The notes: generated by a model not told the origin, from the sequence alone. 43,807 nt of DNA, filler included, from Jimgerdemannia flammicorona (GCA_003990765.1; 2 parts of 2 records of this genome joined end to end with filler, not necessarily neighbours in it); one strand, 5' to 3'; numbered from the whole stretch's first letter, positions 3,713 to 42,902 are shown. Made by a program: numbers and translations.

Positions 3713-3739
3713 TTGTTAAAGATTAAACCTCTCCTCTAC

Positions 3740-9900: not shown

Positions 9901-12900
9901 TTTTTGGGTTCTCCTTTGGATGGGTGGATGGAGATGGCAAAGAGAGGGCATTTCTTGGCTAATTTCTTGAGTTGTAGCTTGTTGATGTGAGTGATCTTTA
10001 GTCCAGGGTCACTAGAATTGAGTAGGTCTTTTTTGCCTTGTAGTTTGAAGTTATGGTGTCCTTTCTTGATGGTCAGAGAATGGTTTATCCAATCAATCAT
10101 GGGGTTCTCTTATTTCAACCATGGGGTTCCAAGGATGATTTCATTGTTAGGGAGTGGTATGATCTGGAGGGTAATATGTACTTGGTAGTCTCTAATTCGG
10201 AAGGGTAGATTGCAGACTTCTTTGCTAATAACATGTGAGGTTCCATCAGCTGTGGTAACTGCTTGAGTTTGTTTTACTGGAGAGGTGAAGACCTTGAGTC
10301 TATTGGCTGTTTCTTTATTAATGAAGTTGCCTGAGGCACCACTGTCTATCATAATCTTGACAGGTGCTCAGTTGACAAAAGCTTTAAGTATAAGTAGTTT
10401 GTCTGATCCAATGGTGGTGATTTTAGTTGTAGGAGCTTTCCTTCTATTGGTTCTTCTTTGTGCCAGTTCGTTGACACAAGAGAAGCAATCATCAATCATT
10501 TGGGAAGAGTACATTTCAATGCCATGAGGGCATCGGCCACTTGGTACATATCTGTCTTCGATCTTCTTATAGAATTATTCTTCTCTGCTCATGGTAGGTT
10601 GGACTGGGGCCTTGTTCAATGAGCCAAATCCTTTGGATCCTCAGATGGTAGGTAGTAGTTCAGGGACTTCCTTGACTGTCAGGGTTGACTCAATTTTTTT
10701 GAATAGGATCTGGGTGATACAGAAACCTATAGATATCTTGAAGGGTGTCCAACTATGGTTTCAGATGAGGACAATAATTTCATCTGTATAATCCTCATCA
10801 ATGACTCCTCCTTCTACTGAGGGTCCCTTCAATGCTAGGCTGCTGCGACAGCATATTCTTCCAACATATCCTTCAGGAATTTGGATACTGATTCCTGTAT
10901 AGACTTGCTTGACTTCTCAGTTGGAAACTGTAGCTTCTTCAGCTGCATACAGGTCATATCCAGCTGCTTTTTGACTTCCTTTGGTTGGGGCCTTAGCAGT
11001 TTGTTTTAACTTGACAAAGTCCAGTGTTCTGGTGGTCAGGTTATTGAGGTGGTGCAGAGTGGTAACAGTTGCTCATGTTGCTGTTCGGGGTTTTCAGTTG
11101 GGGCAGGCACTGGCCATGTGCCCTGTCTTTCAGCAATAGAAGTATGCTCTGCTTCTTCGAAGTTCATTTCTTTCACCTTCAGTGAGTTTCTTGAAGGTAC
11201 TTGGCTGGATAGATTCATGATTTCTGGGTGTCCATGAGGTGGATGTGGAGGGAGCTCAGAATGCTTCATACTTGGGTTCTTCTTTCTTAGTCCAAGTCTT
11301 TTCCTTATTGTTGAATTGTCTTCAGGGCAGAATTGGTCTAGCTGTTAAGATTTACTTGACCATAGTCTTGATTCTTGCCAGGCACTATTGTTGGTAATCA
11401 CAACCAACTGGGCAGTCTTGTTCTCGGGTTTTTCTAGTAAGCCATTTAGGCAGGGCATTGAATAAATGGTCTGCTCTTGTACCATTTCATGCTTCATCAT
11501 TGGTGATATATTCTAGACCAACAGTGTTCAGGAGTGACTTGAGTTTTATACAGAAGGTTTCAAATTCTTCTTTGCCATATACATCAAATTTGAGGTTGTG
11601 GAGTTTTACTCGAGATTCGGCAATCATGGTTTCACTGTGGTATTGAGCAATTATGAGTTGTTTGAGTCCAGGGGCCACAGGGTGGGCTCCATATCCTGAG
11701 GTATTATTTGCTATATTCTGTGCAACTACTGTAGGTCGGGTGTCCCATGTGAGGGGTTTTTCAGGAAGGGTTTGCCACCATTCTTCAGCAGGTCCTTGGA
11801 AGAATGTAACAACTTGGCAGACATAGGCTGTAGTAGTAGCAAAGAGTTGTTCCAGAGTGTGGTCTTGATTGTTTGTCAGAACATGGTCAGCAACTTGCTC
11901 ATTGGTCTATTGATTGGCTTTGAAGTTAGTGTCTACTATACTAATGAAGCTTTGGACTTCTTGTATAGTACCATTGAAGGTAGGTAGACTCAGATTTTTG
12001 GTAGGTCAGGTCTGTTCAGCTAGGGCAGTAATGATTGCTGCCATTATCACTACCTGGGCTGTGAGGTCTAGAATCTGTTGGTTCACCATGTTATTTACTG
12101 GAGATGGTTGGACTGCTGGTAGTGGTGTTACTGGTACTACTTGAGGTACTGGTGCAGAGTGTGAGGGTGTTTTTTGAGTCTGTGTAAGTTATTGGAGTAG
12201 TAGTTGTGGGTCTGGAGTAAGGGCTTGATAGATAGCTGTTTGTTGCTATATAGCTGTATTCTGTCCTGATAGAAGTACGTCTCCTTCGATAGTGTATCTG
12301 GGATCGAATTTACTGAGATACTCCTCCTCTTCTTCAGTTTGGTCTCCATGTAATTGGGTTTGCTTGGTGTCAAAGTAGACAGAATCAGTTGTATATCTGA
12401 TTTCAGATGGACTTAATTCAAAGTCAAGTTCAGGTTCAGTATTGGTTTAGGATTCAGGTAGGGCTGTAGCAGAGCCTGCTTCTAGTTCAGGGCCAGGTAG
12501 TTGATGAAGGGTTTCTCTTGCTTCTTCTTTAAGAATATAGCAGGCCTTGCTGTTCTAGAATCAGTAGTATAATGTAGTCTTGGTCCTGGTGCAGTGAAAA
12601 TTGGTAGAGTTGAGCCACTTAGCTATAGAGGCTTGGGCTTCATGAGGAACTAAGGCTAGAAAGACTGCTGATGGTTGTCCTAGGTCACTCAGATTTATAG
12701 AGCTGACAAAACTCTTGTTGAGAAGAGTAAAGAAGGCTTCAATAAGACCTTCTTCATCTTGACTTGTTGGGTGTAGAGCAAGGAGTTTGGTGAATAGGGT
12801 TTCACCTATTTGCTGATTTAACTGAAGTATTTCTTTCTTCAAATGAAGTTTGTCCCACTTGTTGCAGGTATGGAGGTCAAATTGTTCTTGTATGTCAGGT

Positions 12901-13013
12901 TCAATTCTCTCCAGATTATCAGATGGTTCAGGATAAATTCCAGTTCAGAGGTTGGGCTTTATACTAACTTATAGGAATTTGCAGAGGGGTTTTATAGTGG
13001 GATGAGGAAGCAT
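6970..13013 (-). pseudogene. Gypsy-1 gag-dUTPase-protease-RT-RNaseH-integrase-chromodomain polyprotein, many stops
   Basis: ATG at 13013; degenerate knuckle YFYC*KTGHMASAC ~11100-11145; IDSGASGNF (10110-10352); MCIDY and YIDNILVFS in RT; NYTTHEKEMLAI and NIVADAISR (8370-8753); MDFIVQLP (7843-8034); chromodomain YEVEQIL..YLVKWKGY..ATW at ~6990-7135. Confidence 0.88.
10620..11030 (-). pseudogene. dut: dUTPase domain of Gypsy-1, between gag and protease
   Basis: Manual translation gives LDFVKL..AKAPTKGSQKAAGYDL..TGISIQIPEGYVGRICCRSSLA..GGVIDEDYTDEI..ITQIL..GSKGFGS, covering all five trimeric dUTPase motifs. Confidence 0.9.
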
Positions 13014-13037
13014 CTTGAAGCGGAATTGGATTATAAA

Positions 13038-13049
13038 CCACTGCTACCA
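13038..13049 (-). other. Primer-binding site of Gypsy-1 (initiator tRNA-Met type)
   Basis: TGGTAGCAGTGG, 3 nt inside the 5' LTR end. Identical to the Gypsy-2 PBS. Confidence 0.8.
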
Positions 13050-13495
13050 AGTTATAAGAGGATTGCTTTTTAGGGTAACTGTTACATAGTTCTAGAAGGG
13101 TTTTCTAGAAGTTCTGGATGTTCTGGAAGACTATTTTCTTATGGTCAAGATCAATTTCATATAGAGTACATCCTCTATACTTATTGATTTCAAGATCAGG
13201 TTAATGTCTCAACCAAAGTCCCCTTTTGGACTAGTTCTGGATGTTCAGGATTTTCCATATTTCAGGAAGTTCAAGAAACTAAAACCAGTTTAGTTGAATT
13301 GGCATATTGCTGCAGACAATACCCAATTAGGAAATTTTGTGATAGGGTTAGGAGTGGGACCTAATGGAGAGCGGATTTACTTAAAAGTAGTTTGTGGGTT
13401 ATTAAATAGATTTATTTGCTATTTATGATATTGCTATACTAGGAGTAGTTGTATCAAGGTATATTGTGGGAAAGTGCTCAGGAGTTGTGTTTGGA

Positions 13496-13568
13496 TTGTT
13501 CAAGTCTGTTCAAGTCTGTTCAAGTCTGTTCAAGTCTGTTTAAGTCTATTTAAGTCTATTTAAGTCTG
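13496..13568. repeat. 10-bp tandem repeat (GTTCAAGTCT variants, ~7 copies) inside the Gypsy-1 LTR
   Basis: Directly visible: gttcaagtct/gtttaagtct/atttaagtct units. Confidence 0.9.
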
Positions 13569-13791
13569 AGATTCTGAGGTCTGGGGGAGGGGGTATTTAT
13601 ACTAATGAGAGGCTATCTGGACTATGCTAAATATGGATGTAGCACTAAGTGCCTTGCTGAGTCAGAATGCAGTCATGTAGTAGAAGTGTGATCTGACATA
13701 TCAAAGAGATCATCTGACTGCTGAGTCAGTTCACAGTCACATTATATGAGGCTAATCTAACTATACTATGACTGCTAAGCTATTTATAGGT

Positions 13792-14888
13792 TTAGACACT
13801 ATCTGGGTAGTCTTTGGTGATATCACCATTGATGATATCATCTCTGATGAAGTAGTCATCTAGGAAAAGTAGTTTGCAGATTCCTTCTCCTTATTTGCTA
13901 AGGTAATAATATATTGGAACTTTATCACTATCTCACAGAATAGCATCATCTGTCTCATATGCTGGATAAGGTGTTGGTGGGCAGAGGAGAGGTGCATTGC
14001 CTTCACTTTCATCAGATTCACTGTCTGCATACCTTTTATAGGTTATAGCACTATGAGTTACTGGGTTGTAGTAAGCTGGTGGCTGTGGTTCATATCATTT
14101 GTACTCAGGTAGTGGAGTGGTTGATTCAATCTCGAGGGTTGTCTGGAGGTACAGGTTGTGTTCTCTGGTCTCTTCATTATAGTTGAAGTAATCGAGGGTG
14201 AATGTGGGTTAGTATTCATATCAGTAGTCATTGTCCCAATAAGTCTCATAGATAGTTATGAACTATTGTAAGTTCATTAGTAAGGTTGGTAGTATGATCA
14301 GAGTTGGCAGAGATCCTTAGCTAGAGGTCATGTCAGTATCAGAGGAATCATTGTCTTCTGCTTCATCTTCATCGAACCAGATTATATCATAGACATCCTT
14401 TATAGCATATCTGACTTGAGGCATTTGCAGGATATGGTCATCCAGGTGTGGGAAGGTTCTGTCTGTGGTTTCAATGTACTCAAGGTACTTGTGGTTGAGT
14501 TCTTGTATTATGTTGTCAATTTGGCCATAGATAGGGTAGCAACTATTTCGCTAGTAGTAACTCGAAGATGGAGAATAAAGGTACTGTACTCATAGAAGAG
14601 TTCTCTGTATTTGTGGGCAATGAGTTTCTGGTGTTGGGACATCTGAATAATATCTGTATTATGATGGTGTTCAACCATATCTTCCAGGAGGTGGCTGATC
14701 TAGTAGTAGCTTGAGATTTGTCCAATCTGGTAGGCCTCATTAAGCATGTTCAGAGTGTTCCATCGGACTTCCATGAAGTAAAGGGGTACTAAGCTATAGA
14801 TATTTATGAGGGGTAGAGGGGGTGTGGCTTGATTGACAATAACATTCCAAATGTCAGCGCAGATGCAGTTATAGATCTTGGTGGTCAT
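13792..14888 (-). pseudogene. LTR-embedded ORF of Gypsy-1 (~365 aa, acidic, unknown function)
   Basis: Reads MTTKIYNCICADIWN...DITKDYPDSV* with one 1-nt deletion near 14530. Every stop is explicable as a C-to-T/G-to-A change, and several are sense codons in the other two LTR copies. Confidence 0.75.
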
Positions 14889-15175
14889 ATTGTGTATTTG
14901 GAAGTTGTGGTTGTTATTTGTTTTAGTTCTCTGTTTCAATGTATCTCAGTACTCAGTATATATGCATTTGGTCCTGATTGGTAAGATTCTGTTTGTATGA
15001 ATCTTATGTTCTATAACTTCATATTGACTCAGCTTTGTGTATTATGACTTTGGTTTGACTCAGCTTCATGATTGAGCAGGTGATTTCCAGATTTGTTCAG
15101 AGGTCATATGTGATTTCAGTGGCTTATTCAGAGGGTGACATGTGATTTCGGTGGCTTGGAGGTTGTGTGCTTATA

Positions 15176-15432
15176 TCTTCTCTACTAAAGTCTCCTCTAC
15201 TAAAGTCCTCTCTGCTGAAGTCTCCTCTATCAAAGTCTTCTCTATCAAAGCTCTCTCTGTCAAAGCCCTCTCTGCCAAAGTTCTCTCTACTGAAACCTTC
15301 TCTATCAAAGCCCTCTCTACTAAAACTCTCTCTGCTGAAATTCTCTCTACTGAAGTCCTCTTTACTGAAGTCTCCTCTGCTGAAGTTCTCTCTACTAAAG
15401 TCCTCTTTACTGAGATTCTCTTTGTCAAAATC
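15176..15432. repeat. 15-bp tandem repeat (~17 copies, consensus ~CTCTCTACTAAAGTC)
   Basis: Directly visible periodicity. Explains the spurious SLLKS-repeat ORFs. Confidence 0.9.
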
Positions 15433-15499
15433 CCCTACCAGTAGCCTTACTGCTCAACTATAGTCTTACTACATAACTATGAGCTAGCAAATAATAAGC

Positions 15500-15652: not shown

Positions 15653-15696
15653 TTTTGCAGATAGAGGTCTCAGTAGTGTATCAGAGACTGGCTGTG

Positions 15697-16099
15697 TGTA
15701 ATGGTTCTAGTTTCTAAATGAGGAAGCGACTTAATTCTGGTAGTCCTAAGTAGCTTGAAGAGATACTAAGGATTCAAGTGTTCTCAAAGGATTTCTGGGA
15801 GAAAATATTCTGAGCTTTATTCATGAGAACAAAGGGAATATTTATACAAGATCTGAAAGAAGGATCTGGAAGGATCTGAGAAATCAAAGGAAAATGCCAA
15901 GAGGAAAGTTCTCGGCAAAGATGACAAATGATGACAAATAAAGTTCTACAAGTTTCCAGGACATTCAGTGACTAACTAAATAAGTACTAGTTAATGCTCG
16001 GTGCCAAGAAAGGATTTCTAAGCATTTGGAAAGTACCAGAAGGTCATAGAATATTGGAGAAAGACAAAGAAAAGGAATAAACTATGCTAAAATATTACA
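15697..16099 (-). repeat. Gypsy-2 3' LTR
   Basis: About 15 substitutions versus 21326-21728 by manual comparison. PPT AAGGAGGGAGAGA is adjacent on the minus strand. Confidence 0.97.
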
Positions 16100-16412
16100 T
16101 CTCTCCCTCCTTAAGAATCAACATCCTTGTTGAATTCTCAAAGTTACACATGATAAACAATAAGACTAAAAGAAACTTCAAATTAAATATACCGACTCAT
16201 TGGCAAGGATTGGCCATCCTTGTATAAGGCAAGGGCCAAAGTATCATCTTGATTGGATGAGAACTGGTTCGAACCTCATTGGTTGCAGGATTTATAGGGT
16301 TCTCCTGTATCTCTTGCTTCTGATGCTGTATCCCTTAGAGAGCCCCGATGCGTAATGTGCCTGATCAGCACAGTAGGTCATCTACTATTCAAGGGGAGAA
16401 CCTCATGGGCAG

Positions 16413-19400
16413 TCAATGAGTTCCTTTTTGCTCGAACTCTTGGATGAGGTCTTGGGAGTTCTTGAGATTGGCAGCAGGTTCCCAGGTGGCGTCATATTCA
16501 GGGTAACCCATCCACTTGACTAGGTATTCTGTGCGACGGTATCAGACTCATTTGTCTAAGATTTTCTTGACTTCATACTTGATGTAATCTTCAACTATAA
16601 CTGGTGCTGATAGCATCGGAATTCGGCCAGGGTATAGGGGTGACTGGTTCCAGGTCTTGAGTTGTGACATATGGAATACTGGATGTATACACATGGTTGT
16701 TGGCAAGTTGAGATAGTAAGACCAGGTAGAGACTTGCTCGGTGATCTCGAAGGGTCTAAGGTACTTGGGCTGGAATTTGGCTGACTGGCGGTTGACTTGA
16801 GATTGAGCCTTGATGTTGTTGGCTTTGAGTAGAACCATATCGCCAATGTTGTATATAACATCTCGCCGCTTCTTATCTGTATACTTAGCTTGATGTTGCT
16901 GAGCCTTTTGCAGGTTCGTAGTGGCGATCTTGAGAAGGGAATCCATTTTGTCGATAAGGTTCTGGGCTGTGGGGACTTGTGTGTAACTGGATTGCTGGAA
17001 TTGGACTAGACTTGCAGGGGTCTCGGGGTTTTGACCGTGAAGTAGCTGAAATGGGGAAAGACCCGTTGATGATTGGTTGGCATTATTGTAGGCGAACTCG
17101 GCATAAGTCAGATAGTGGTCCCAATCATCTTGCTCATAGGACACGTAGTTTCTGAGCATTTGTTCAAGTGTTCTGTTCATTCGCTCTGTCTGTCCATCAG
17201 TTTGAGGATAGAAGGCCATAGACATAGCAATTTGGGTTCCCAGGGTCTTGAAAAGTGCTTGCCAGAAGTGACTTGTGAACTTGGGGTCGCGGTCACTGAT
17301 AATTACTCAGGGAAGTCCATAATGGCAGAAGACAGTCTTGAAGAAGATTCTTGCAATTTCTGGGGCAGTGGCATTGGTTGTGGTTGGCTCGGCGATTGTA
17401 ATCTTGGTGAGACAGTCCACAAACACAACAATAGCATCATAGCCTGTTTTGGTTCGTGGGAGTTATACAATGAAGTCCATTGTGACTTGTTCGAACTTCT
17501 TGGTTAGAATTGACAAGGGTTGTAGAAGACCGGCAGGTGCTTGGTTGCTTGACTTATTTCTTTGGCAAAGATTGCAGCTTTGGACATACTCCTTAATTTC
17601 CTTGAGCATGTTTGGCCAGTAGTAGTCTCGTTGGATATTCTTGATGGTCTTCTCAGTTCCAAGGTGGCCAGTTAGTGGGGAGTCATGGTGTTCATGGAGA
17701 ATCTTGTACCATAGTTCAGGGTTGGCAGGAATATATACTTTGTTTTGATAGTATACGAGGTTGTCCTTGATGGTGTACTTTTCCTTGAATTCCTTGGTGT
17801 TCCTTTGTAGAACCAGAGAGTCTTGTTCGTATGGCTTCTTGATCTGATTGAGGAATTCAGGTGCCATGGTGACTTGTAAAATTGCGGCAAGGTCAGGTCT
17901 CCTTGAAAGTACATCTGGTACAACTAGAGTTTTGCCAGACTTATAGATGATGTTTGGGATAAAGGTCTGAAGCAGTTGACTCCACTTGGCTTATTGGCGA
18001 GAAAGGGTTGGTTGAGTGTTGATATACTGAAGGAATCTGTGATCAGTGATTACATCGAACTCAACTCCTTCTAGATAGTGTCACCAGGTCTTGAGGGCAT
18101 GTATGATTGCCAGGAGTTCCTTTTCATGAGTAGCCAGCTTTTGTTCTGCTGGGGACAATTTTCTTGACTCAAAGGCAATAGGTCAGTGTCCTTGACCATC
18201 ATCTTGAGAAATGACTGCACCAATGGCAAAGTTAGATACATCTATAGTGACCGTGAACTTTAAGTTTGGGTCTATGTTTCTAAGGACAGGTGCATGGGTC
18301 AGGCAGTTCTTGAGTTCTTGAAAAGCTTGTTGACAGAAGGCATCCCAGATGTAGGGGACATAGAGGTCAGAGTTGGGTTTCTTTCGCAGGAGGTTTGTCA
18401 GAGATTCTGCGATGCCAGAGAAGTTCTTGACAAATCGATGGTAGTATCCAGCTAGACCAAGGAAGGACCTGAGTTCAGTGAGGTTTGCTGGTACAGGCCA
18501 CTGTTCAATGGCTTGTATTTTCCTTGGGTCTACTTGAATTCCTTTGGCTGATACAATGTGTCTAAGATATTTGACTTGTTCCTTGAAAAATTCACATTTC
18601 TTGAGCTTTGCATAGAGCTTGTTCTCGTGGAGGATCTTGAGGACTTGTTCGATATGCTTGAGGTGTTCTTCTTCAGTGCTACTGAAGATCAGGATGTCAT
18701 CAATGTACACGAGTACAAAGATATAAAGCTGGTCCTTAAAGACAGTTTGCATGAGGTCTTGAAAGGTTGCTGGCACATTGGTGAGACCAAAGGCCATGAC
18801 TAGAAACTCGTAGAGTCCAAAGGGTGTCATGAAGGCAGTCTTGGGTATGTCTTCTGGCTTGATTTGAATTTGGTGATACCCAGAGGTGAGATCAATCTTG
18901 GTGAAGTACTTTGCATTCTTGAGAGCATTAATGATTTGATCTATGAGCGGTAGTGGATAGTGGTTCTTGACAGTGATCTTGTTGAGTGCTCGGTAGTCTA
19001 TGCACATTCGCAGAGTATTATCCTTTTTCTTGACAAATAGGACTGGGGAGCCAAAGGGTGACTTGCTTGGCTGAATGGCTCCTCATTCAATGATTTTATT
19101 GAGTTCCTTCTTGACTGCTTCAATTTCGAGTGGAGACATACGGTACATTTTCTTCTTAGGTATAGCTGCATCAGGTACCAACTTGATTTCGTGGTCATGG
19201 TCTCTTGAAGGTGGTAGACCAGGTAGTTTGTCTGGGAAGACATCCTTGTACTTATTCAGCAGTAACTTAATGCTTTCATCAATTGATAGCTTCTTGTCTT
19301 CTTTCTTTGGTCGGATCAGTGCCACAAAGGTGCAGGTAGCTTTCTTGAGGGCCTTCTTGAACTGGATTGCTGAAAGGGTAGCAATTGGGGTTCTCATCTG

Positions 19401-21257
19401 AGTCTTGTCTGGCTTGATGGTAATATTGACTCCATCTTGAATCAAGGTGACTTCATTCTTGGTCCAATCAATCTGAGGGTTGTGCCATGTAAGCCAGGGT
19501 TTGCCTAGGATCAGGTCATGGTCTCCTAGTGGTGCTACCTCGAAATCTAAATGTTCCCAGTACTTCTGGATCTTGAGGGGAAGTTTAGCAGCAATTGAGT
19601 CAATTGGTAAGGTGGTGCCATCCGCAGTGACAACTCCACCATTCTTGCCAGCTGGTTTGGTGAGAATCTTGAGCTTGTCAATGAGGTTCTTGTTGATGAA
19701 GTTCCCAACAGCTCCGCTGTCTATGAGAACATCTAGTTCTTGTCCCTTGACTAGATCTTTGAAAATGAGCATTGAATTGGCTCGGTTCTCAGCTATGCTT
19801 GCAACTTTGTCAGTGCTGCCAAAGCCTTTCTGATCTCACTTAGTGGAAGACAGCTTGGTAACTTCTTTGACAACTGGTAGGGTGGCTCACTCCAGGATGA
19901 GCTGTGCAATTCTATCTCCTTCATTGATGGTATATGGCTGGTTCTTGTGGTTGACTAGCAGAACTTGCATTTCACCTTGGAAGTCAGAGTCTATGACTCC
20001 AGCACTAACATCCAATGAGTGCTTGAAGCTGAGACCAGATCTTGGTGCAATTCTTACATAATATTCCTTGGGGATTTCGACTGAAAGGCCAGTTGGAATG
20101 AGCCTTCTTTCATGTGCCGGAATAGTGACTTGTTGTACTGCTTGAAGGTCCAAACCGATGGCTCCTTCTGACTGTGCTTGAGGGATCTGAGCCTTGGGGT
20201 TGACTCGCATAAAATTGAGTACAACTTCTTGTTCAACTGGTTGACCTTGAGTGTCTTTGGACAGGACCAGGATCCTCTTTGGTTCCGCAGTTTTCTTGGG
20301 ACATTTGGTTGCAATGTGACCAGGCTGATGGCAAAAAAAGCAGGCTCCAGCCTTCTTGAGGCGCTCCTTTTCCTCAGGTGTAAGCTTGCCTTTCTTGCTC
20401 TTGTCGATGGTGTCTAGGTCCATGGGGGCAGGTCCAACAGTTCTGACTTTGGGTTCCTCCCTTCTGTGGTTGTTGTTGTTGTTGAAAGGCGGTCTCTTCT
20501 GTTCAAAGTGGTAACCATAGGTGATGACATCAAACCTATCAGCAATTTTCATTGCTGTGTCTAGGTCCTTGGGTTCTTCTAGTTCAACATGAACTCAGGT
20601 TTGACCTTTCAAACCTCAGATGTACTTGTCAACCTTCTCGTCTTCAGTGACATGTGGTAATTCTAGCAGGATTGACAGGAATTGTGTATTGTATGCTTGC
20701 ACAGACTTGAGTTGTTTGATGTTTGCCAGACAGTCTCGTGCAGCCTTGGTGCTGTTGACTGGTTCGAATTGGCCTTGAATTGCATCAGAGAATTCGCCCC
20801 AGGTCTTGATTCGGCCAGAGAATCTGGTATTCTGGACATGATTTCACCACCAGATTGCAGCATTCCCTCAGAGAAGTGTGGCAGCAAATTGGACTAGTGT
20901 TGTTTCTTCCAAATTGGTCAGTTCTCTATATTGCTCCAATTGGAAAAGCTAGGCGTTGGTAGACAGTCCTCCTCTTTGACCATCAAAGGTGTTGGGCTTC
21001 TGAGGCTTGATAGTGACTGCTGTCAGATGTATTGATGTCAGTGGAGGTACGGAGGTATGAGCAGAGGCCTTGCTTTCCTTTCTTTCTATGCATTCTTGAA
21101 GTTGGGCAATCTGAGCTAATGTAGTTTGCAAAAGACTCTCGATGGACCCGGTTGACTGGGTGGGGATTGGCTGTTCCTCTTCTTTTTCTTGCTGATGGTA
21201 AGAGGCATTGCCTGGACCGTAGGTACTGTATGAAGGATTCCACCCATTGTCCTCCAT
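16413..21257 (-). pseudogene. Gypsy-2 single-frame gag-dUTPase-PR-RT-RH-IN-chromodomain polyprotein (1614 codons, nonsense-interrupted)
   Basis: ORFs 20949-21257, 19887-20552 (CFFCHQPGHIATKC), 19083-19772 (LIDSGAVGNF), 18183-19007 (YIDDILIF), 17463-17867 (HH..GH..CNLC) and 16548-17225 (QTDGQTER) are all in one frame. Chromodomain YEVKKIL..YLVKWMGY..ATWEP ends at TGA 16413-16415. Confidence 0.95.
19808..20220 (-). pseudogene. dut: dUTPase domain of Gypsy-2, between zinc knuckle and protease
   Basis: Motifs GAIGLDL, RIAPRSGL, GVIDSDFQGE, GDRIAQL and KGFGST. Confidence 0.95.
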
Positions 21258-21311
21258 AGTGTTATAACTGATATCTTGAGAGGTGTCTTGATAAGGCTAG
21301 ATGTAACTTCA

Positions 21312-21323
21312 CCACTGCTACCA
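21312..21323 (-). other. Primer-binding site of Gypsy-2 (initiator tRNA-Met type)
   Basis: TGGTAGCAGTGG, 2 nt from the 5' LTR. Confidence 0.85.
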
Positions 21324-21325
21324 AG

Positions 21326-21728
21326 TGTAATAGTTCTAGTTTCTAAATGAGGAAGCGACTTAATTCTGGTGGTCCTAAGTAGCTCAAAGAGATACTAAGG
21401 ATTCAAGTATTCTCGAAGGATTTCTGGGAGAAAATATTCTGAGCTTTATTCATGAGAACAAAGGGGATATTTATACAAGATCTGAAAGAAGGATCCAGAA
21501 GGATCTGAGAAATCAAAGGAAAATGCCAAAAGGAAAGTTCTCGGCAAAGATGACAAATGATGACAAATAAAGTTCTACAAGTTTCCAGGACATTCAGTGA
21601 CTAACTAAATAAGTACTAGTTAATGCTCAGTACCAAGAAAGGATTTCTAAGTATTTGGAAAGTACCAGAAGGTCATAGAATATTGGAGAAAGACAAAGAA
21701 AAGGAATAAACTACGCTAAAATGTTACA
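21326..21728 (-). repeat. Gypsy-2 5' LTR
   Basis: Direct repeat of 15697-16099, followed by TSD CTGTG. Confidence 0.97.
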
Positions 21729-22508: not shown

Positions 22509-22519
22509 ATTGTTTGGTT

Positions 22520-29940: not shown

Positions 29941-29956
29941 CAAAGCAAAGGAGCTT

Positions 29957-31423: not shown

Positions 31424-31689
31424 GTTGCGGTAAACACGTCACCTGAGATTTCGGCAAAGGGTGTTTTTGCCTATCGTACGATAGGCATTTGGAGCGAAAT
31501 ATTTGTGTCACAACATTTTCGCGCAACATTTAATTGATAAAAATATATATAATACAAGACCAGTTGAACAGAAATAATACATAAGACCAACTGAAAATAT
31601 GAATATATTTGTATCACAGAGCCACCAGCGGCGAAATATTTATGGCCAGATAAAGATATTATGGCTTTCGGGGATTCATGAATTACGTA

Positions 31690-33030: not shown

Positions 33031-33138
33031 TTGTACCGTAAAGTTAGCAATGCGTATTTGTCATTACTAGCAGAAGATTCTAGAAGAACGTAACTAAGTT
33101 ATTTAAATGACAATTTTCTTAAAATTTCCTATTCCAAA

Positions 33139-35830: not shown

Positions 35831-36154
35831 AAAAGAAGATGGGAGGAATACTTTAACCCTTAGTCTGTAGTTTTATTAACTTTACTAAAAGTATATAGAA
35901 ATATTAATCTTAATTTTTAAATAATAATAATTGATCATATTAACTTGCACAATATCAAATATTTCCTAATTTAGTATTAGTTTATTTATTTTTAATTCAT
36001 TATATATAAACTACATATGCTACAAATCACAAGCCAAAAGTGCAAGCCACAATAGCAGGTGGCAACGGCAGGCCAGGTCATAACCACAAGCAATCGTGAT
36101 TGATATACTGTGACACGTGCCTAACATAATGGATGCAAAAGACAATGTAACAGG

Positions 36155-36290
36155 CGATGACATACAAATGATGACATACAAATGACGACATACAAACAAT
36201 GACATATGAATGATGACATACGAATGATGACATATGAATGACAACATAACGAATGATGACATAATGAACAATGGCATAATGAACACTTAT
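36155..36290. repeat. Degenerate 12-14-bp tandem repeat (ATGACATA core)
   Basis: gatgacatacaaat variants, ~9 copies. Confidence 0.8.
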
Positions 36291-36379
36291 AATAGCCAAT
36301 GTATAAAATATAGTGTGACTATAGCAATTACTGTACAACTTGTATAAATAACTCAGATAGCCCTATTAGGAAACATTCT

Positions 36380-36460
36380 GAACCCCCAAGGTTTCAAACC
36401 TCCAAGGTTCCAAACCCCCAAGGTTTCAAACCTCCAAGGTTCCAAACCCTCAGGGTTCGA
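36380..36460. repeat. 15-bp tandem repeat (AAACCYCCAAGGTTY, ~5 copies)
   Basis: Directly visible; each unit is bracketed by AACC/GGTT. Confidence 0.88.
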
Positions 36461-37388
36461 TTTTCCAAGTTACAGATCATAAATAGCCTTACTGCGCATT
36501 TTATAATTAGCCAGATAGCAACCAAGGTAGCAACCACAAATGTATAAAATACCCCAGAGATTAGAGTGAATAAAACCTCAGTCCAAAATTGCAAACACAT
36601 TTCTACTCCAGTCCACTTTCTGATACAAAGAAGAGTCTGAATTTGAAAAGCAAAAGCCAATTGCCTGGTACACTTAGGAGAAATGCCTGCCAAAAGCCAC
36701 TTGATCCTAAAGATTGGATTGCAACACTTAGGAGATATGCCTGCCAATGAGCCACTGCCAAGAATTGTGAGCATCATTCCACTCCGGTCCACTTTCTGAT
36801 ACAAAGCCTGTTCGTGGCCCAAGTTTGAGGGAAGAACTTCACCACCTTTTGGTCTGCTTACCCGAATAAGCCTGAAGAGTGCCGCCCTTTTTGGTACACT
36901 TGCCAGATAAGCCTGAAATCCACCAAGTTCGAGTAAAGAACTTCACCACCTTTTATCATGCAACAAACGTAGATTGTACCTGAGCGATCAGAGAACCTGA
37001 ACAATCACAGAAAACCGAGTCACGCAAACAATATAGAATCCAAACGATCATAGAAAACAAGTCATGCGAACCAGAGAACATGCACGATTAAGGATAAAAC
37101 GACAAATTCATACAACCGCTGAGTCACACGAATCAGAGAATGCATACAAACGACAAATTTGTACAACTGCCGAGTCACATGAAATCACCCATATCTCAAG
37201 AATGCCACCAAATTAGGAAATCGCTCACAGAGATCTCCAGCTATTGAATATTATACTGCTAAATGCCAGAACTAGACCAACATATCTGAACATTTTGTTG
37301 TTTTTTGACAAAGTAACTGAGGGCTTAAGCCAATCTACACAGCCATCCAACCTTGTAATTTGCCTCTATTGAGCCAGCATGTTACATT

Positions 37389-37405
37389 TGGGGGCTCAAC
37401 TGGGA
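37389..37405 (+). other. Primer-binding site of Gypsy-3 (tRNA-Pro type)
   Basis: TGGGGGCTCAACTGGGA, 2 nt after ...TTACA. The canonical tRNA-Pro PBS is TGGGGGCTCGTCCGGGA. Confidence 0.75.
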
Positions 37406-37425
37406 AGATTTTTCTCAAAATCTAC

Positions 37426-39876
37426 ATGACTTTCCAGCTCACAGAACTCAACCTTCAACCTGGAGACAAACACCACTGAAACCTTTGACACAGCACCAAT
37501 CTCAGCTACTACAGGAGAAGAAATCCCAGCACTACAAAGCATCTGGACAGGAAGAGACGTAATTACCTCCAGAATCGGATACCACTCAGCATCAGAAGGA
37601 TCTGAAGTTACAGGAGCCAGCACTGTACGAAATCCACCACCAACTCAGTCACCAAGCCCACAGCTTGTAAATACTCCAGAAGTAGCAGAAAATATACCAC
37701 CAAGAGAGCTGCACTCAATCTCTCAGACTCAGAATCAGAAATCGAAACAGAACCAGAAAGCAGTAATGATGAAATGGCAACACTACCCACATTTGCTGGA
37801 TACCCAGAAGAAGACCCAAGAGAATTCCTGAATACTATCGAAGGAATAGCAGTCTTAAGGAATCTACCAACACAAAGATTAATTGCTATCTTCAAGGTAC
37901 AATTAAGAGAACCTATCTTCATCAGGATAGCAAGTGATGCTACCACAGACCTAGGAGATACCATGATAAATGGAGACTTCGATGAGCAATATGTAGCCAT
38001 GCAACATTGGATTATCGAAAAGTATACAGGAAACAAAACCCACCACAAGGCTCAAAAATCCATTATGGGAATGAAGATGAACCTTGGAGAATCCCCAAGA
38101 GCATTCTTCACCAGAATCCAAAAGAGAATGCATGCTGCTGGATTCAATGCTGCCAATCAAGACATCATCGGTCCAATGACCTTCATGAATGGAATTCCAC
38201 CCAACATCACTCAACATGTCCGAACCCTGGGTATCAGAAGGCCAGAAGAACAAGTTGATGCTGCTCAAGGATATTTCGATGTCAAACAAGGGACCACTTG
38301 GACAGACAACAAGAAAGAAGACAAGGAGGACCTCCTGGTCAAGGCCTTATAAGGAATCCTTCAAGGAGAAACAAGGGGAGAAAAACCCACCAAAGAATAG
38401 AAGAAGGACAAGAATGAGATTCAAGACCTCAATTCGAAAGTGGACAGACTGGTTGGGCAAATAGAAAAGCTCACCTCACGCGAAAATCGGAATTACCAGC
38501 CAAGCTACCCACGCGAAAATCAGAATTTCCAGCCAAGATATCCACCATGTGAAAACCAGGATTACCAGAGAAATTACTTACATCCTGAAAGTCGAAACTA
38601 TCCTCCAAGAGATAGGGCACAAGTCCAATGCTACAAATGTGGACAGCAAGGACACTATGCCACCGAATGCAACAGCCAAGGTAGCTCAAGGAATTCCGAA
38701 CCACCAAATCGAAAAGACAACTACAACAAGAAGACAGAAGCTCACCCAGTTGAAGACTATGACCAGAGTGACAGTGATGAATACAGCGACCTAGACCTGT
38801 ACCCAGCCAAGGCCGAATACAGAGAAACAGTCTACCCCACAGAAAAAAGGAAGAGAGCAGTAGGCCATCCCAGAGTAGTAGGAAAACCACCCAAAAGAGC
38901 AAGCAGGAGAATCAAGGAGATGACTGAGCAAAAATCCGAAAGGAGAAAAAGAAGAAACCTACAAGAAAGGTCCTCAAGATATATGATCTAGGAGAAAATA
39001 TCCTGGCTCTCATTCGCCATGCAACTCGCCAAGGATGGATAGATGATGCCATCAATTTCATGGAAGTCCTGGACCCCACTGGAAAAAGAGGAATCAATTA
39101 TCTCTGAGACCCCTCTACTGGAACAAGATGGCCTCACCTAGACATCAGAGGCTGGAGATCCAAAGCCACAGGAGCCTCAACCCATGGACAGCCTACACTT
39201 GGCAAAAATATCACACAGTTCACCCTACTTCATCCCAATGCAATTCCATCCAAGAAAGCACACCAAGAAGATGTTGGCTATGACCTCAGTAGCATCTGAG
39301 ATACAGTCATAGGCCCTGGAAGTACAAAACTTATTGGCACTGGACTTGCCATATGACCACCAGAAGGGACATACATCCAATTGACCTCAAGATCAGGACT
39401 TGCAAAAGAAGGAATAACAACTGAAGGAGAAACCATAGATCCAGAATATACAGGTAAAATCAAGGTCATTCTAAGAAATGGAAGCAGTGAATGAACTCGA
39501 ATCAACAAAGGAGACAAAATCACACAAGCAGTCTTCCTCGAATACAAGACTCCTCAGCTACAGGAAGTACCCAAGCTCACTCAAGGTACCAGACAAACCA
39601 AAGGATTTGGAAGCTCAGACAAAAAGGAAGTGCATCTCCTTCAGGTCAATCGATTCAAAACAAATGCCCCTCAGCAAGTTTTCCGCCAGCCAGTAAAACT
39701 TCATAAGAACCTCATCCATGAGCCAGGAGAGTAGACTACTATCGAAATCTTTGCATCACTCGACTCCAGGAATCTCTTCTTTGAACCAAATGAAGAAATC
39801 CGAAATCTGCACATAGAGGGATACACATTCCCTGACAAGATGAATCCAGTACATTCCCGAGCAACCAACACAATGA
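37426..39876 (+). mobile_element. Gypsy-3 copy A internal region: gag with CCHC knuckle, 1.7-kb internal deletion, dUTPase; truncated at telomeric repeats
   Basis: LPTFAGYPEEDPREFL...MNLGESPRAF (37774-38352) and CYKCGQQGHYATEC (~38628-38670). Junction at 38914/38915 lacks the segment equivalent to 40426-42157. Confidence 0.85.
39212..39620 (+). pseudogene. dut: dUTPase domain, Gypsy-3 copy A
   Basis: [37 protein letters not shown]. Confidence 0.9.
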
Positions 39877-39900
39877 CCCTAACCCTAACCCTAACCCTAA
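39877..39900. repeat. Interstitial telomeric repeat (CCCTAA)4
   Basis: Four perfect units at the Gypsy-3A/LINE fragment junction. Confidence 0.9.
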
Positions 39901-40285
39901 TCCAGAAAAACTATTCTTCCATCAATATTTCGACTTTAACAGCCTTCAATGACATTTTGAACCCAAGCTGTACTATCCCAGATTAGGTGGCCATTCACAA
40001 ATCCTCTCTAGTCTCTACCAATAAAGTCTCTAATTTTTTTCTATAGATGTTATGCTAGTCAACATTCAGCAGCATTATCAGCTACCAATTTTTCCATATT
40101 CTCCTGTCCCCCTTATTCTTATATATTAGTGACACTAAACTCAATAGACTATTGTTCAATCAGTACTCATATTCCGATACTGCATTTATCATCTCCACTA
40201 ACTACCCCCCAAATTCCAGTCAGAACTCCTTTCAGAATTCTCAGGGTAGGCCATCCACACCTGGGGAGGATTCATTTTAGACATC
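39901..40285 (-). mobile_element. LINE reverse transcriptase fragment (LINE-E)
   Basis: Minus-strand translation SPGVDGLP*EF*...LVSLIYKNKGD..KNW*LIMLLNVD...FVNGHLIWDSTAWV...DGRIVFLD parallels LINE-A RT. Confidence 0.85.
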
Positions 40286-40290
40286 ACTCA

Positions 40291-42902
40291 AATACAGTGA
40301 CCTAGACCTGTACCCAGCCAAGGCCAAATACAGAGAAACAGTCTACCCCACAGAAAAAAGGAAGAGAGCAGTAGGCCGTCCCAGAGTAGTAGGAAAACCA
40401 CCCAAAAGAGCAAGCAGGAGAATCATTCAAGATGAAGATGAAGAAGAACAGGTTGATACACCTCCCCATTCCCCTTCACCCTTTGTCCCTGGAACTATCA
40501 TCAATGGAGAAAACCCTCTACTAGAATCTGCCGATAAAGAAATACAAGAAGAACCTGAATCAGAAGCCAGAATTCCAAAGCCCAAGAAGAAATATCTCCC
40601 AAAGACCATACCACGGGACATCTACAATGAGGCATGGAAGAAGATCCAAGAAGCCAAAATGGAGGTCCCCCTCCTGCAATTCCTGTAGTTGACATCAGCT
40701 GGAGTAAGGAACAAACTGCTGAGAACCACCAGATCCAGCACAGGAAGAGTTCCAATCCAAGAAGAACCAGCAATTCAATCTGCAGAAAGACATGTCAGCA
40801 CCTATCTGTATGGAGAAATCGGAGGCCAGAAGGTGAAAATTCTCATTGACACTAGAGCTGCTGTATGTGTCATTGCAAAGAAATTCCTAGACAACATTCA
40901 ATGGCCCATTGACGGACCATCCAGCCTCAGCATCATTGTAGCTGATGGAGCCCGAACTCAACCCCTGGGAGAAGTCCAAAACATCACCATCACCTTGGGA
41001 CACATCTAATTTGCCATACCCAAAGCTGTAGTAACAGAAGTAGTTACCTACGACATGATCCTTGGAACAAATTGGATGAAGGAAATGCATGCAGTTGTCG
41101 ACATTGGCCAACAGGTGCTCAAATTCGACTATAGAGGGAAGAAATACTGTATCAAGGTGACCAGCTTCGAACAGTCAAAGAAGAAGAAGAAGGTGACCAT
41201 CCAAGAAAAGTATGCCAGCAGCGAAGAATCCACTATAGAAGAAGAAGAGGAGGAATCCGAAAATGACAATGATCCAAGATTGCATCCACAAATCAACCTG
41301 ATAGAAGACAGGTCAGAAGACAATGTATGGGCCCAAGATACCATCCCAATCACCATTGGAGTCATTGCTGGAGAAGCCTGAGGATGCCCTACATGCCTCC
41401 AGAAATACAGATGCCCTGAACACAGCTCCAGGATCATTGGAATAAGAAAAAGCCCAGGCACAGCATGCCTTGAGTGCAGGAAGAAGAAGAAGAGATGTAG
41501 GCACACTATTCCAACCCCCAGAAACCATGTACAAATCGCTCCAAACCCTGAATCTGATGCTGCAGAAGTACAAGCCATCTGGGACCAACCATCCGAGGAA
41601 GAAGATATGTCCGAAACTGAAGGGCTCCCCAAAATCATTCCCTGGGATGATCCACATTGGACACCACCAGAAGGAGAAGACAATGAGCCATGGAACAATG
41701 AAGCAGGACCCAGTACACAACCAGCTATCCAAAGACCAGAAACAAACCAAGAAAAAGCCTTCAGAATCAGAAGATGTCAGCACTGAGTTGTTTTCCATTC
41801 ACCCAGAGACTACTGCTATGAATGCCACATACTGGATTAGCAACAGTGACATCCTGAACCAATGTCACCCGAGATAGTTGCGGAGGTCACCACATTTCAA
41901 TAAACCACTACTAGGCTTACCAAACAATGAAATGGAAGAGGATATGTCACCTATCAAGAGGTACATCCCCTTTCCACACTCCCAACCACCTATGATTCAG
42001 ATGGTTATCGGTTCCTCAAGCAAAAGAAAATAGAAGAAAGAAAACAGCACTCTCAAGCCATGGGACACTGTCATCATGGAAAGCATCTCAAATGCCAGGC
42101 CTGTCTATATGAAAAAGTCCACCTCAGCAAGGATGTAATTGTACACACACTCAAAAGAGGAGATGACCGAGCAAAAATCTGAAAGGAGAAAAAGAAGAAA
42201 CCTACAAGAAAGGTCCTCAAGATATATGATCTAGGAGAAAATATCCTGGCTCTCATTCGCCATGCAACTCGCCAAGGATGGATAGATGATGCCATCAATT
42301 TCATGGAAGTCCTGGACCCCACTGGAAAAAGAGAAATCAATTATCTCTAAGACCCCTCTACTGGAATAAGATGGCCTCACCTAGACATCAGAGGCTGGAG
42401 ATCCAAAGCCACAGGAGCCTCAACCCATGGACAGCCTACACTTGGCAAGAATATCACACAGTTCATCCTACTTCATCCCAATGCAATTCCACCCAAGAAA
42501 GCACACTAAGAAGATATTGGCTATGACCTCAGTAGCATCTGAGATACAGTCATAGGCCCTGGAAGTACAAAACTTATTGGCACTGGACTTGCCATGTGAC
42601 CACCAGAAGGGACATACATCCAATTGACCTCAAGATCAGGACTTGCAAAAGAAGGAATAACAACTGAAAGAGGAACCATAGATCCAGGATATACAGGTAA
42701 AATCAAGGTCATTCTAAGAAATGGAAGCAGTGAATGGACTCGAATCAACAAAGGAGACAAAATCACACAAGCAGTCTTCCTCGAATACAAGACTCCTCAG
42801 CTACAGGAAGTACCCAAGCTCACTCAAGGTACCAGACAAACCAAAGGATTTGGAAGCTCAGATAAAAAGGAAGTACATCTCCTTCAGGTCAATCGATTCA
42901 AA
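40291..42902 (+). mobile_element. Gypsy-3 copy B: end of gag, aspartic protease, Cys/His-rich insert, dUTPase (single frame); truncated at both ends
   Basis: 40291-40425 duplicates 38780-38914 and 42158-42902 duplicates 38915-39659. Protease ILIDTRAAV...DMILGTNW at ~40790-41130. Confidence 0.87.
42455..42863 (+). pseudogene. dut: dUTPase domain, Gypsy-3 copy B
   Basis: [37 protein letters not shown] (ORF 42624-42944). Confidence 0.92.

What the first reader, a model, noticed from the sequence alone, without database searches (positions are those of the whole stretch)
10620..42863. Three distinct LTR families in 44 kb all carry dUTPase, at two different polyprotein positions
Seen: dUTPase lies between Gag and protease in Gypsy-1 (10620-11030) and Gypsy-2 (19808-20220), but downstream of the protease and a long insert in Gypsy-3 (42455-42863; duplicate 39212-39620). 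The three sequences are clearly diverged (AAGYDL / AIGLDL / DIGYDL), the LTRs are unrelated, and two PBS types are used. Known: dUTPase was acquired repeatedly at different positions in retroviruses (betaretroviruses, non-primate lentiviruses, ERV-L) and only sporadically in fungal LTR elements. Inference: at least two independent captures, implying host-specific pressure such as a high dUTP:dTTP ratio in non-dividing nuclei/spores or uracil-based restriction of cDNA.
Basis: partly seen in the sequence, partly recalled or inferred. Interest (0 to 1): 0.75.

Follow-up and report, generated by a model that had tools for sequence, protein, structure and literature searches.

The report
Dead fungal-type retrotransposons carrying dUTPase domains
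Three decayed Gypsy-type retrotransposon families in this window each carry a dUTPase domain, before the protease in two and after it in the third, a pattern already described for fungal Gypsy elements, so the finding is real but largely ordinary.

Summary
Pfam finds dUTPase (PF00692) at all four stated places. All copies are dead: each dUTPase has 2-3 in-frame stops.

Gypsy-1 and Gypsy-2 (minus strand) are chromoviruses ordered gag-Zn knuckle-dUTPase-PR-RT-RNaseH-IN-chromodomain. They share an identical 12-nt PBS.

"Gypsy-3" (plus strand) reads gag-Zn knuckle-PR-about 450 aa-dUTPase. The "duplicate" is a second copy, 98% identical, with a 1732-bp deletion that removed PR and the insert. No RT, IN or LTR pair of Gypsy-3 lies in the window.

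Database relatives show both orders: 16 proteins PR-before-dUTPase and 5 dUTPase-before-PR, of 199 examined.

The inference of at least two independent captures is not established. The dUTPase tree is unresolved. An AU test does not reject one clade for all 21 Gypsy-borne dUTPases (p=0.34).

Variable dUTPase position among Gypsy families of one fungal genome, and independent acquisition, were published in 2010 (PMC2864245).

One new detail: in Gypsy-3's lineage the dUTPase is followed by a conserved domain predicted to have a dUTPase fold without the catalytic motifs.

The parts
5853..15178 (-). Gypsy-1, a decayed chromovirus ordered gag-Zn knuckle-dUTPase-PR-RT-RNaseH-IN-chromodomain
   Evidence: LTR pair 5853-6543 / 14447-15178 at 87-90% identity. 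Pfam hits: Chromo 6970-7173, SH3_Tf2-1 7213-7374, RT_RNaseH 8373-8936, RVT_1 9222-9848, PR 10113-10367, dUTPase 10764-11072. 25 stops in 1342 codons from gag to the IN zinc finger.
10620..11030 (-). Gypsy-1 dUTPase domain (AAGYDL ... KGFGS), 3 in-frame stops, lying between the Zn knuckle and PR
13038..13049 (-). Gypsy-1 primer-binding site TGGTAGCAGTGG, identical to Gypsy-2's. It implies a 5' LTR of about 2.1 kb (15178 to ~13056) and a 3' LTR truncated at 5853.
   Evidence: Only 2 exact matches in the window; the other is G2's PBS. The preceding CTTATA is the inverted complement of the LTR start TGTAAG, allowing one transition. The long LTR is inferred.
15696..21728 (-). Gypsy-2, a complete but dead chromovirus with LTRs 15696-16099 and 21325-21728, TSD CACAG, and a 1614-codon polyprotein at 16416-21257
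   Evidence: LTRs 96% identical. One frame with 15 stops and no frameshift. Pfam hits: gag, dUTPase, PR, RVT_1, RNaseH, Integrase_H2C2, SH3_Tf2-1. The chromodomain motif was read by eye.
19808..20220 (-). Gypsy-2 dUTPase domain (AIGLDL ... KGFGST), 2 in-frame stops, between the Zn knuckle and PR
   Evidence: PF00692 E 1.2e-31.
21312..21323 (-). Gypsy-2 primer-binding site TGGTAGCAGTGG, 2 nt after the 5' LTR end ...ATTACA
   Evidence: The assignment to initiator Met tRNA is recalled, not tested.
37774..39872 (+). Gypsy-3 copy A: gag, Zn knuckle (38629-38671), a deletion junction at 38914/38915 (PR and insert missing), dUTPase, and the first ~70 aa of the post-dUTPase domain
   Evidence: 38780-39659 matches copy B at 98%. 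The stretch 39660-39872 matches P0006 at 79% identity.
39212..39620 (+). Gypsy-3 copy A dUTPase (DVGYDL ... KGFGSS), 3 stops
39660..39872 (+). Remnant of the post-dUTPase domain. In relatives this domain is predicted to have a dUTPase fold without the catalytic motifs.
   Evidence: Alignment A1. Model of the P0074 tail has pLDDT 87-95 over residues ~20-100. Foldseek top hits are all dUTPases. With VIA-align the top 22 rows (Z 11.2-7.2) are all dUTPases, dCTP deaminases or herpesvirus proteins (pp71, ORF10); the next row is at Z 5.6.
40291..42902 (+). Gypsy-3 copy B, truncated at both ends: linker after the Zn knuckle, PR (DTRA at 40839), ~450 aa insert with Cys-rich motifs (from 41385), and dUTPase. 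13 stops in 882 codons.
   Evidence: The relative P0001 (E 6.9e-93, 35% identity) has the same order.
42455..42863 (+). Gypsy-3 copy B dUTPase (DIGYDL ... KGFGSS), 3 stops
   Evidence: PF00692 E 2.9e-22.
37379..37405 (+). Putative Gypsy-3 LTR end (..TGTTACA), then TT, then a PBS-like TGGGGGCTCAACTGGG that differs from the G1/G2 PBS
   Evidence: Read by eye. No second LTR lies in the window, so this is unconfirmed.

Best explanation
The window is a transposon-rich stretch, probably fungal. It holds three mutationally dead Ty3/Gypsy-type retroelement families, each with a trimeric-type dUTPase domain fused into its polyprotein.

Gypsy-1 and Gypsy-2 are chromoviruses of related lineage. They share the domain order gag-Zn knuckle-dUTPase-PR-RT-RNaseH-IN-chromodomain and the same primer-binding site, so they most likely inherited one insertion of dUTPase at the gag/PR junction.

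Gypsy-3 belongs to another lineage whose first ORF reads gag-Zn knuckle-PR-long insert-dUTPase-second degenerate dUTPase-fold domain. Its RT-IN part is missing here because both copies are truncated.

Inferred mechanism, by analogy with retroviral dUTPases: when such elements were active, the enzyme hydrolysed dUTP near the reverse-transcription complex. That would keep uracil out of the cDNA in cells with little host dUTPase.

The arrangement is a further example of what was described for Postia placenta and other fungi. How many times the domain was captured remains open.
For: Domain calls and order: Pfam and read-through translations.

Shared PBS 12-mer in G1 and G2: exactly 2 matches in the window.

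RT-RNaseH tree of 16 rows: G1, G2 and P0151 (all dUTPase-before-PR) can form one group (1 change; support 54/9). G2 is 56% and G1 49% identical to P0151. PR-before-dUTPase elements fall in separate starred clades.

Gypsy-3 architecture is backed by P0001 (Zn knuckle 169-184, PR 400-502, dUTPase 897-1021, 158-aa tail). The PR plus post-PR region of P0001 is homologous to P0004, which continues into RT and RNaseH.

Three relatives' ORFs (P0001, P0006, P0074) end just after the tail domain.

All five catalytic motifs are recognisable in all copies.

Literature: three dUTPase positions in Postia placenta Gypsy families and the non-dividing-cell rationale (PMC2864245, passages); PR-dUTPase-RT in rotifer elements (PMC5408684, passages).
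Against: No copy here is intact, so no function operates now.

No RT, IN or LTR pair of Gypsy-3 is in the window. The contig of P0001 could not be fetched, so its class rests on gag/PR homology.

The grouping of G1 with G2 in the RT tree has weak support (54/9), and two dUTPase-less chromoviruses (P0198, P0199) sit in the same unresolved region.

A tail-only BLAST finds no tail in any RT-bearing relative.

The organism is unknown and the host's own dUTPase could not be included. Enzyme activity and the uracil-avoidance role are inferred, not tested.
Confidence: 0.8

Rival explanations
1. One reading: the dUTPase was captured at least twice independently from cellular or viral genes, once at the gag/PR junction (Gypsy-1/2 lineage) and once after PR (Gypsy-3 lineage), driven by a host-specific need to avoid uracil in cDNA.
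For: Different insertion points in different RT/PR lineages. Each element's dUTPase is closer to standalone dUTPases (45-52%) than to the other elements' (33-39%). In the free trees Gypsy-borne dUTPases are scattered: 7 changes for 21 rows. The published NJ tree is said to suggest independent sources (PMC2864245, passage only; its Additional file 2 not seen).
Against: The scatter has no strong support: starred branches force only 1 origin. One clade of all 21 Gypsy-borne rows is not rejected (p-AU 0.34). Long branches of decayed copies distort placement; the G1 end branch is 2.34 and G3's 1.51. The host DUT1 is not available.
Confidence: 0.45
2. There was one ancient acquisition by a Gypsy ancestor. 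The domain was later moved within the polyprotein, or exchanged between co-resident elements by recombination of co-packaged RNAs.
For: Monophyly of Gypsy-borne dUTPases is not rejected. G2's dUTPase is as similar to that of a PR-before-dUTPase element (P0152, 50%) as to that of a dUTPase-before-PR element (P0151, 50%). Both orders and a C-terminal position occur widely among database polyproteins.
Against: No supported clade unites them. No flanking homology travels with the domain between G2 and G3: the alignment outside the motifs shows no conserved flanks. dUTPase-less chromoviruses sit near G1/G2 in the RT tree, which would require losses.
Confidence: 0.35
3. 'Gypsy-3' is not one element with a duplicated piece. 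It is a rearranged or mis-joined region: two separately truncated copies of one family brought together, possibly by an assembly error or a healed chromosome break.
For: A (CCCTAA)4 telomere-type repeat lies at 39877-39900, exactly where copy A breaks off. About 390 bp of unrelated sequence follows before copy B starts mid-gene at 40291. Copy B ends abruptly at 42902 and abuts an unrelated intact ORF.
Against: This does not touch the domain order inside copy B, which is continuous in one frame from the linker through PR to dUTPase and is matched by P0001. No reads could be laid: the one run found held 7% of the sampled words and was not used.
Confidence: 0.3

Closest known systems
PosPlaTy3-3, -4 and -5 Gypsy families of Postia placenta, with the Phanerochaete chrysosporium and Tuber Tmt1 dUTPase-bearing elements (Novikova, Smyshlyaev and Blinov 2010, PMC2864245)
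   Same: These are chromodomain-containing fungal Gypsy elements in which different families of one genome carry dUTPase at the N-terminus of Pol, between PR and RT, or at the C-terminus. The authors already suggest independent acquisition and a role in non-dividing cells.
   Different: Sequences of those elements were not at hand, so kinship was not tested. Gypsy-3 has a much longer PR-to-dUTPase spacer (~450 aa) and a second dUTPase-fold domain. Neither is mentioned in the passages I read.
Betaretroviral gag-pro dUTPase (MPMV, MMTV)
   Same: dUTPase lies between gag and PR in the polyprotein, as in Gypsy-1 and Gypsy-2. The MPMV dUTPase is among the structural matches to the tail model (Z 9.3).
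   Different: Those are vertebrate retroviruses with env and frameshift-separated ORFs. Here the elements are chromoviruses with a single gag-pol frame.
Bdelloid rotifer Juno, Vesta and TelKA LTR retrotransposons (PMC5408684)
   Same: dUTPase lies between PR and RT in several related lineages, as in the Gypsy-3-like order and in P0004 and P0152-P0160.
   Different: The host is an animal, there is no chromodomain, and an env-like ORF3 is present. Gypsy-3's ORF appears to stop after the tail domain.
Herpesvirus monomeric dUTPase (EBV) and dUTPase-related proteins (HCMV pp71, MHV-68 ORF10)
   Same: Two dUTPase folds occur in one chain, one of them degenerate. EBV dUTPase domain 2 is the best structural match to the Gypsy-3-lineage tail (Z 11.2, rmsd 2.3 over 90 residues).
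   Different: There is no sequence similarity (6-15% identity). In the retroelement the first domain keeps all five motifs, whereas in EBV the motifs are split between the two halves (recalled). Common origin is not implied.

Membership tests
Trimeric dUTPase (Pfam PF00692) | Profile score above the curated cut-off (22 bits) | tested here: met
   G2 109.6 bits; G3 copy B 79.2 bits; G1 piece 42.8 bits; G3 copy A pieces 24.8 and 23.4 bits.
Trimeric dUTPase (Pfam PF00692) | Five conserved motifs (AxGxDL, (P)RSG, GxIDxxY, GxRIAQ, GFGS) | tested here: met
   The alignment with yeast-, Ustilago- and Mucoromycota-labelled and acidobacterial dUTPases shows all five. G1 motif 4 is degraded (GFCITQ) and G3 has GDKITQ.
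Trimeric dUTPase (Pfam PF00692) | Open reading frame and enzymatic activity | tested here: not met
   There are 2-3 in-frame stops in every copy. Activity is not testable with these tools.
Ty3/Gypsy chromovirus (Gypsy-1, Gypsy-2) | LTR pair, PBS, gag-PR-RT-RNaseH-IN order, C-terminal chromodomain | tested here: met
   LTR pairs; PBS; TSD CACAG for G2; Pfam domain order. The chromodomain is a Pfam hit in G1. In G2 it was read by eye only.
Ty3/Gypsy LTR retrotransposon (Gypsy-3) | RT-RNaseH-IN following PR, and flanking LTRs | tested here: not met
   No RT, RNaseH or IN hit on the plus strand at 28000-43807. No repeat pair flanks it. Both copies are truncated, so this shows absence from the window, not from the family. 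Kinship rests on the gag Zn knuckle, PR, and homology of PR plus post-PR sequence to the RT-bearing P0004.
dUTPase-bearing fungal Gypsy elements (Novikova et al. 2010) | dUTPase domain inside the polyprotein of a chromodomain Gypsy element, at the N-terminus of Pol or between PR and RT | tested here: met
   Positions established; description read. Fungal origin of the window is inferred only from named relatives (Phanerochaete sordida P0157; Linderina pennispora P0012).
Tandem dUTPase-fold proteins (herpesvirus dUTPase / DURP type) | Two dUTPase folds in one polypeptide | tested here: inconclusive
   The second fold is predicted for the relative P0074 from a 5-row alignment (pLDDT 87-95 in the core). 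Sequence profiles do not confirm it: hmmsearch found nothing significant and hhalign gave probability 7.7%. Only about 70 aa of it survive in the window.

The most novel reading that the evidence does not exclude
The Gypsy-3 lineage (window copies, P0001, P0006, P0074) is an undescribed branch of Gypsy-like elements. Its gag-pro ORF carries, after a ~450-aa Cys-rich insert, an active-type dUTPase followed by a duplicated, catalytically dead dUTPase-fold domain. That would be a retroelement parallel to the tandem dUTPase folds of herpesviruses. The second domain could replace a subunit in the trimer, or could have a non-enzymatic role, as herpesviral dUTPase-related proteins do.
Probability: 0.3. 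Interest if true: 0.55.

Novelty: new member of a known kind. Interest (0 to 1): 0.3.

Why it matters
It adds one more genome region in which several Gypsy families carry dUTPase at different polyprotein positions. It also shows, from database polyproteins, that both orders, a C-terminal position and a Copia IN-dUTPase-RT form are common in environmental eukaryote sequence.

It does not settle how often the gene was captured. The useful lead is the second, degenerate dUTPase-fold domain behind the enzyme in the Gypsy-3 lineage. If confirmed, it would be a new architecture for retroelement dUTPases.

Tried and rejected
- Word-index search with Gypsy-3 copy B (882 aa) at near lengths found nothing at E<=1e-3. 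The full HMMER search did find relatives.
- No genome is held for the window, so there is no census of dUTPase-bearing families and no host DUT1 or UNG check.
- The sequencing-run search with 31600-34300 gave one soil-metagenome run holding 7% of the sampled words.
- The metagenome locus search for P0001's contig returned only a weak dUTPase relative, L001 (33% identity over 88 residues). What follows the Gypsy-3-type ORF could therefore not be read.
- ESM Atlas gave no usable hit for the P0001 insert, and only sub-0.9 hits for the tail.
- The AlphaFold model of the PR-to-dUTPase insert, from a 2-row alignment, had mean pLDDT 40. It gives no fold information and was not searched.
- KGFGS in motif 5, shared by all three window dUTPases, is not diagnostic: 32 of 185 GFGS motifs in proteins of 200 aa or less have K.
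- The local dUTPase HMM against the tails gave no significant match.
- In the whole-protein BLAST P0021 aligned ~90 aa beyond its dUTPase, but a tail-only BLAST gave no P0021 hit. I dropped it as evidence that RT follows the tail.
- Cluster look-ups of 30 proteins named only a few organisms. Most tree neighbours stay unlabelled, so 'cellular' rows were chosen by source name or by long contigs.
- Earlier-findings look-ups returned nothing.
- Additional files 1 and 2 of PMC2864245 (element structures and the dUTPase tree, old .DOC files) were not opened, because the task's note on supplements says old .doc files are not readable. They bear directly on the independent-capture claim.

Full report
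**What is in the window**

The 43.8-kb window is mostly transposon sequence.
- LINE-like elements with RVT_1 lie on the minus strand at about 1-5850 and 22000-28000 (they match each other at 71-73%).
- A third 5' piece, recognised by eye, lies on the plus strand at about 34800-35850.
- Two LTR elements lie on the minus strand between 5853 and 21728.
- A third retroelement family lies on the plus strand from about 37400 to 42900.
- An apparent host stretch holds an F-box ORF at 33094-34218.
- No genome is held for the window.

Six-frame translation and Pfam place dUTPase (PF00692) at all four stated places:
- 10620-11030, minus strand.
- 19808-20220, minus strand, E 1.2e-31.
- 42455-42863, plus strand, E 2.9e-22 on the read-through.
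- 39212-39620, plus strand.

All five dUTPase motifs align with named cellular dUTPases. Every copy has 2-3 in-frame stops. The three families' domains are 33-39% identical to each other.

**Gypsy-1 and Gypsy-2**

Gypsy-2 is a complete dead element.
- Its LTRs are at 15696-16099 and 21325-21728, 96% identical.
- A 5-bp duplication, CACAG, flanks both sides.
- The PBS TGGTAGCAGTGG lies 2 nt after the 5' LTR.
- One 1614-codon frame (16416-21257) has 15 stops and no frameshift.
- Its order is gag, Zn knuckle (residue 306), dUTPase (365-482), PR (511), RT, RNaseH, IN, chromodomain.

Gypsy-1 has the same order (ZnK ~11105, dUTPase, DSGA at 10352). It is older: the LTR-matching parts are 89% identical, and there are 25 stops in 1342 codons.

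The same 12-mer PBS occurs at 13049-13038. These are the only two exact matches in the window. It is preceded by the inverted complement of the LTR start. I therefore infer a 5' LTR of about 2.1 kb, and a 3' LTR cut at 5853 by the neighbouring LINE.

The G1 and G2 LTRs show no BLAST similarity to each other.

**Gypsy-3**

The plus-strand reading gives gag from 37774 and a Zn knuckle at 38629-38671.

The segment 38780-39659 (copy A) recurs at 98% identity as 40291-40425 plus 42158-42902 (copy B). Copy B holds 1732 extra bases between the two parts. In copy B a single frame runs from the post-knuckle linker through a retroviral-type PR (DTRA at 40839; Pfam gag-asp_proteas, E 5e-8) and about 450 aa with Cys-rich motifs into the dUTPase. 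It has 13 stops in 882 codons.

Copy A is therefore a deletion derivative in which dUTPase directly follows gag. It is not a second 'downstream of PR' instance.

After the dUTPase, copy A continues for about 70 aa with sequence 79% identical to the database protein P0006. It then breaks at a (CCCTAA)4 repeat at 39877-39900. Copy B breaks at 42902 and abuts an unrelated intact 188-codon ORF.

No RT, RNaseH, IN or LTR pair of this family is in the window. A possible LTR end and a different PBS-like sequence at about 37379-37405 were read by eye only.

**Relatives of Gypsy-3**

A full HMMER search of 1.84 billion representatives with copy B gave the following:
- P0001: 1179 aa, E 6.9e-93, 35% identity, aligned over query residues 423-872.
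- Fragments at 73-90% identity.

P0001 has Zn knuckle 169-184, PR 400-502, dUTPase 897-1021 and a 158-aa tail.

The PR and post-PR region of P0001 is homologous to P0004 (E 1e-24). P0004 continues as dUTPase-RT-RNaseH. That is the basis for calling the lineage Gypsy-type.

The tail is conserved in P0074 (44% identity), P0006/P0320 and the window. The ORFs of P0001, P0006 and P0074 all end shortly after it.

**The tail domain**

A model of the P0074 tail was built from a 5-row alignment. Its core has pLDDT 87-95 over residues ~20-100.
- In Foldseek, every listed PDB hit is a dUTPase; the best E is 6e-4.
- With VIA-align against 48,161 chains, the top 22 rows (Z 11.2 to 7.2) are all dUTPases, dCTP deaminases or herpesvirus proteins (HCMV pp71, ORF10). 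The best is EBV dUTPase domain 2, and the next row is at Z 5.6.
- Sequence profiles do not confirm this: the local HMM gave nothing significant, and hhalign gave probability 7.7%, although in the expected register.

I read the tail as a second, catalytically dead dUTPase-fold domain. This is predicted, not shown.

The insert between PR and dUTPase gave no fold (pLDDT 40) and no Atlas hit.

**How common are the two orders?**

I classified 199 retrieved proteins by local phmmer with Gypsy-2 domains:
- 16 have PR before dUTPase (11 of them continue into RT).
- 5 have dUTPase before PR.
- 9 have IN before dUTPase.

Pfam shows many Copia-type IN-dUTPase-RVT_2 proteins and ginger (Zingiber) RVP-dUTPase proteins.

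Named relatives include a Phanerochaete sordida polyprotein (P0157) and Linderina pennispora dUTPase-like proteins (P0012).

**Test of independent capture**

- A 97-row dUTPase tree is poorly resolved: 8 of 94 inner branches are starred. G2 pairs with P0151 (dUTPase-before-PR), G3 pairs with P0012 and P0058, and G1 is a long unresolved branch.
- Forcing the four window rows into an exclusive clade is marginally rejected (p-AU 0.040). That is not the single-capture hypothesis.
- A cleaner 46-row set had 21 Gypsy-borne rows, 6 Copia-borne rows and 19 cellular-type rows chosen by source name or long contig. Ambiguous short rows, including P0012, P0028 and P0040, were left out. It again shows scatter without strong support.
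- Holding all 21 Gypsy-borne rows together is not rejected (delta lnL 9.0, p-AU 0.34).
- The RT-RNaseH tree (16 rows) allows G1, G2 and P0151 to form one group, with weak support (54/9). It puts PR-before-dUTPase elements in separate starred clades.

So position correlates with element lineage, but the number of captures is open.

**Literature**

- Novikova, Smyshlyaev and Blinov 2010 (PMC2864245; passages read) report dUTPase in several Postia placenta Gypsy families at the N-terminus of Pol, the C-terminus of Pol, or between PR and RT. They cite earlier cases in Phanerochaete chrysosporium and Tuber. They state that independent acquisition from different sources seems likely, and they give the non-dividing-cell rationale.
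- Rodriguez et al. 2017 (PMC5408684; passages) report PR-dUTPase-RT in three rotifer lineages.
- An Entomophthora muscae preprint (passage) lists dUTPase among TE-linked Pfam families enriched in that genome.
- Searches for a dUTPase-like second domain in retrotransposons (listings only) showed nothing of that kind. This covers only the held library.

**Mechanism**

Shown: the domains are bona fide dUTPase homologues embedded in gag-pol polyproteins.

Inferred, from retroviral dUTPases as summarised: the enzyme lowers dUTP at the site of reverse transcription, so that less uracil enters the cDNA.

Nothing in the window bears on host pressure. The decay pattern of the copies is 112 transitions among 114 differences between paired copies. 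CpG observed/expected is 0.08-0.35 in the elements, against 1.0 in the host stretch. That pattern looks like methylation-linked deamination of genomic copies, not cDNA editing. This last reading is my inference.

**Verdict**

The evolutionary inference is unproven. One side lead is worth following: the second dUTPase-fold domain in the Gypsy-3 lineage.

Noticed in passing
window 39877-39900: (CCCTAA)4, a telomere-type repeat, lies inside the contig exactly where Gypsy-3 copy A breaks off. It may mark a healed break, an old fusion or a mis-join.
   Followed up: partly
window 1-5850, 22000-28000 (minus strand); 34800-35850 (plus strand): These are LINE-like non-LTR elements (RVT_1 hits). Their sense strand is extremely G-rich: GC skew on the + strand is about -0.45 across the two minus-strand copies. 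The copies are 71-73% identical to each other.
   Followed up: partly
window LTR pairs 5853-6543/14447-15178, 15696-16099/21325-21728; G3 copies: 112 of 114 differences between paired copies are transitions. CpG observed/expected is 0.08-0.35 in all transposons but 1.0 in the host-gene stretch 31600-34300, which suggests methylation-linked C-to-T decay aimed at repeats.
   Followed up: partly
window 42901-43464 (+): An intact 188-codon ORF starts exactly at the breakpoint of Gypsy-3 copy B. It has a weak ubiquitin-like hit (UCH_UBL1, E 2.9e-4, below the cut-off), and its origin is unknown.
   Followed up: partly
window 29959-30967: This is a third, inverted copy of the Gypsy-1 LTR region, 78% identical to 14175-15173. 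It sits among local repeats at 28413-31179 and is probably a solo or truncated LTR.
   Followed up: no
window 15140-15454: A 15-bp tandem array of about 14 or more copies lies at the outer edge of the Gypsy-1 5' LTR. It translates as a Lys/Glu-rich repeat and gave a spurious HC2 hit.
   Followed up: no
window 21858-21901 and 21914-21957: Two runs of 44 N lie just outside the Gypsy-2 5' LTR. They are assembly gaps or masked stretches at the junction with the LINE-like element.
   Followed up: no
window 33094-34218 (+), 31693-33060 (-): Two intact ORFs look like host genes. One is an F-box-like protein (E 3e-8). The other is a 456-codon ORF with no Pfam hit and internal 84-bp repeats at 32770-32991.
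   Followed up: no
P0007, P0009, P0013, P0018, P0037 (database proteins): Several hits carry two or three dUTPase domains in tandem. Those that are named come from plants (Salix, Zingiber).
   Followed up: no
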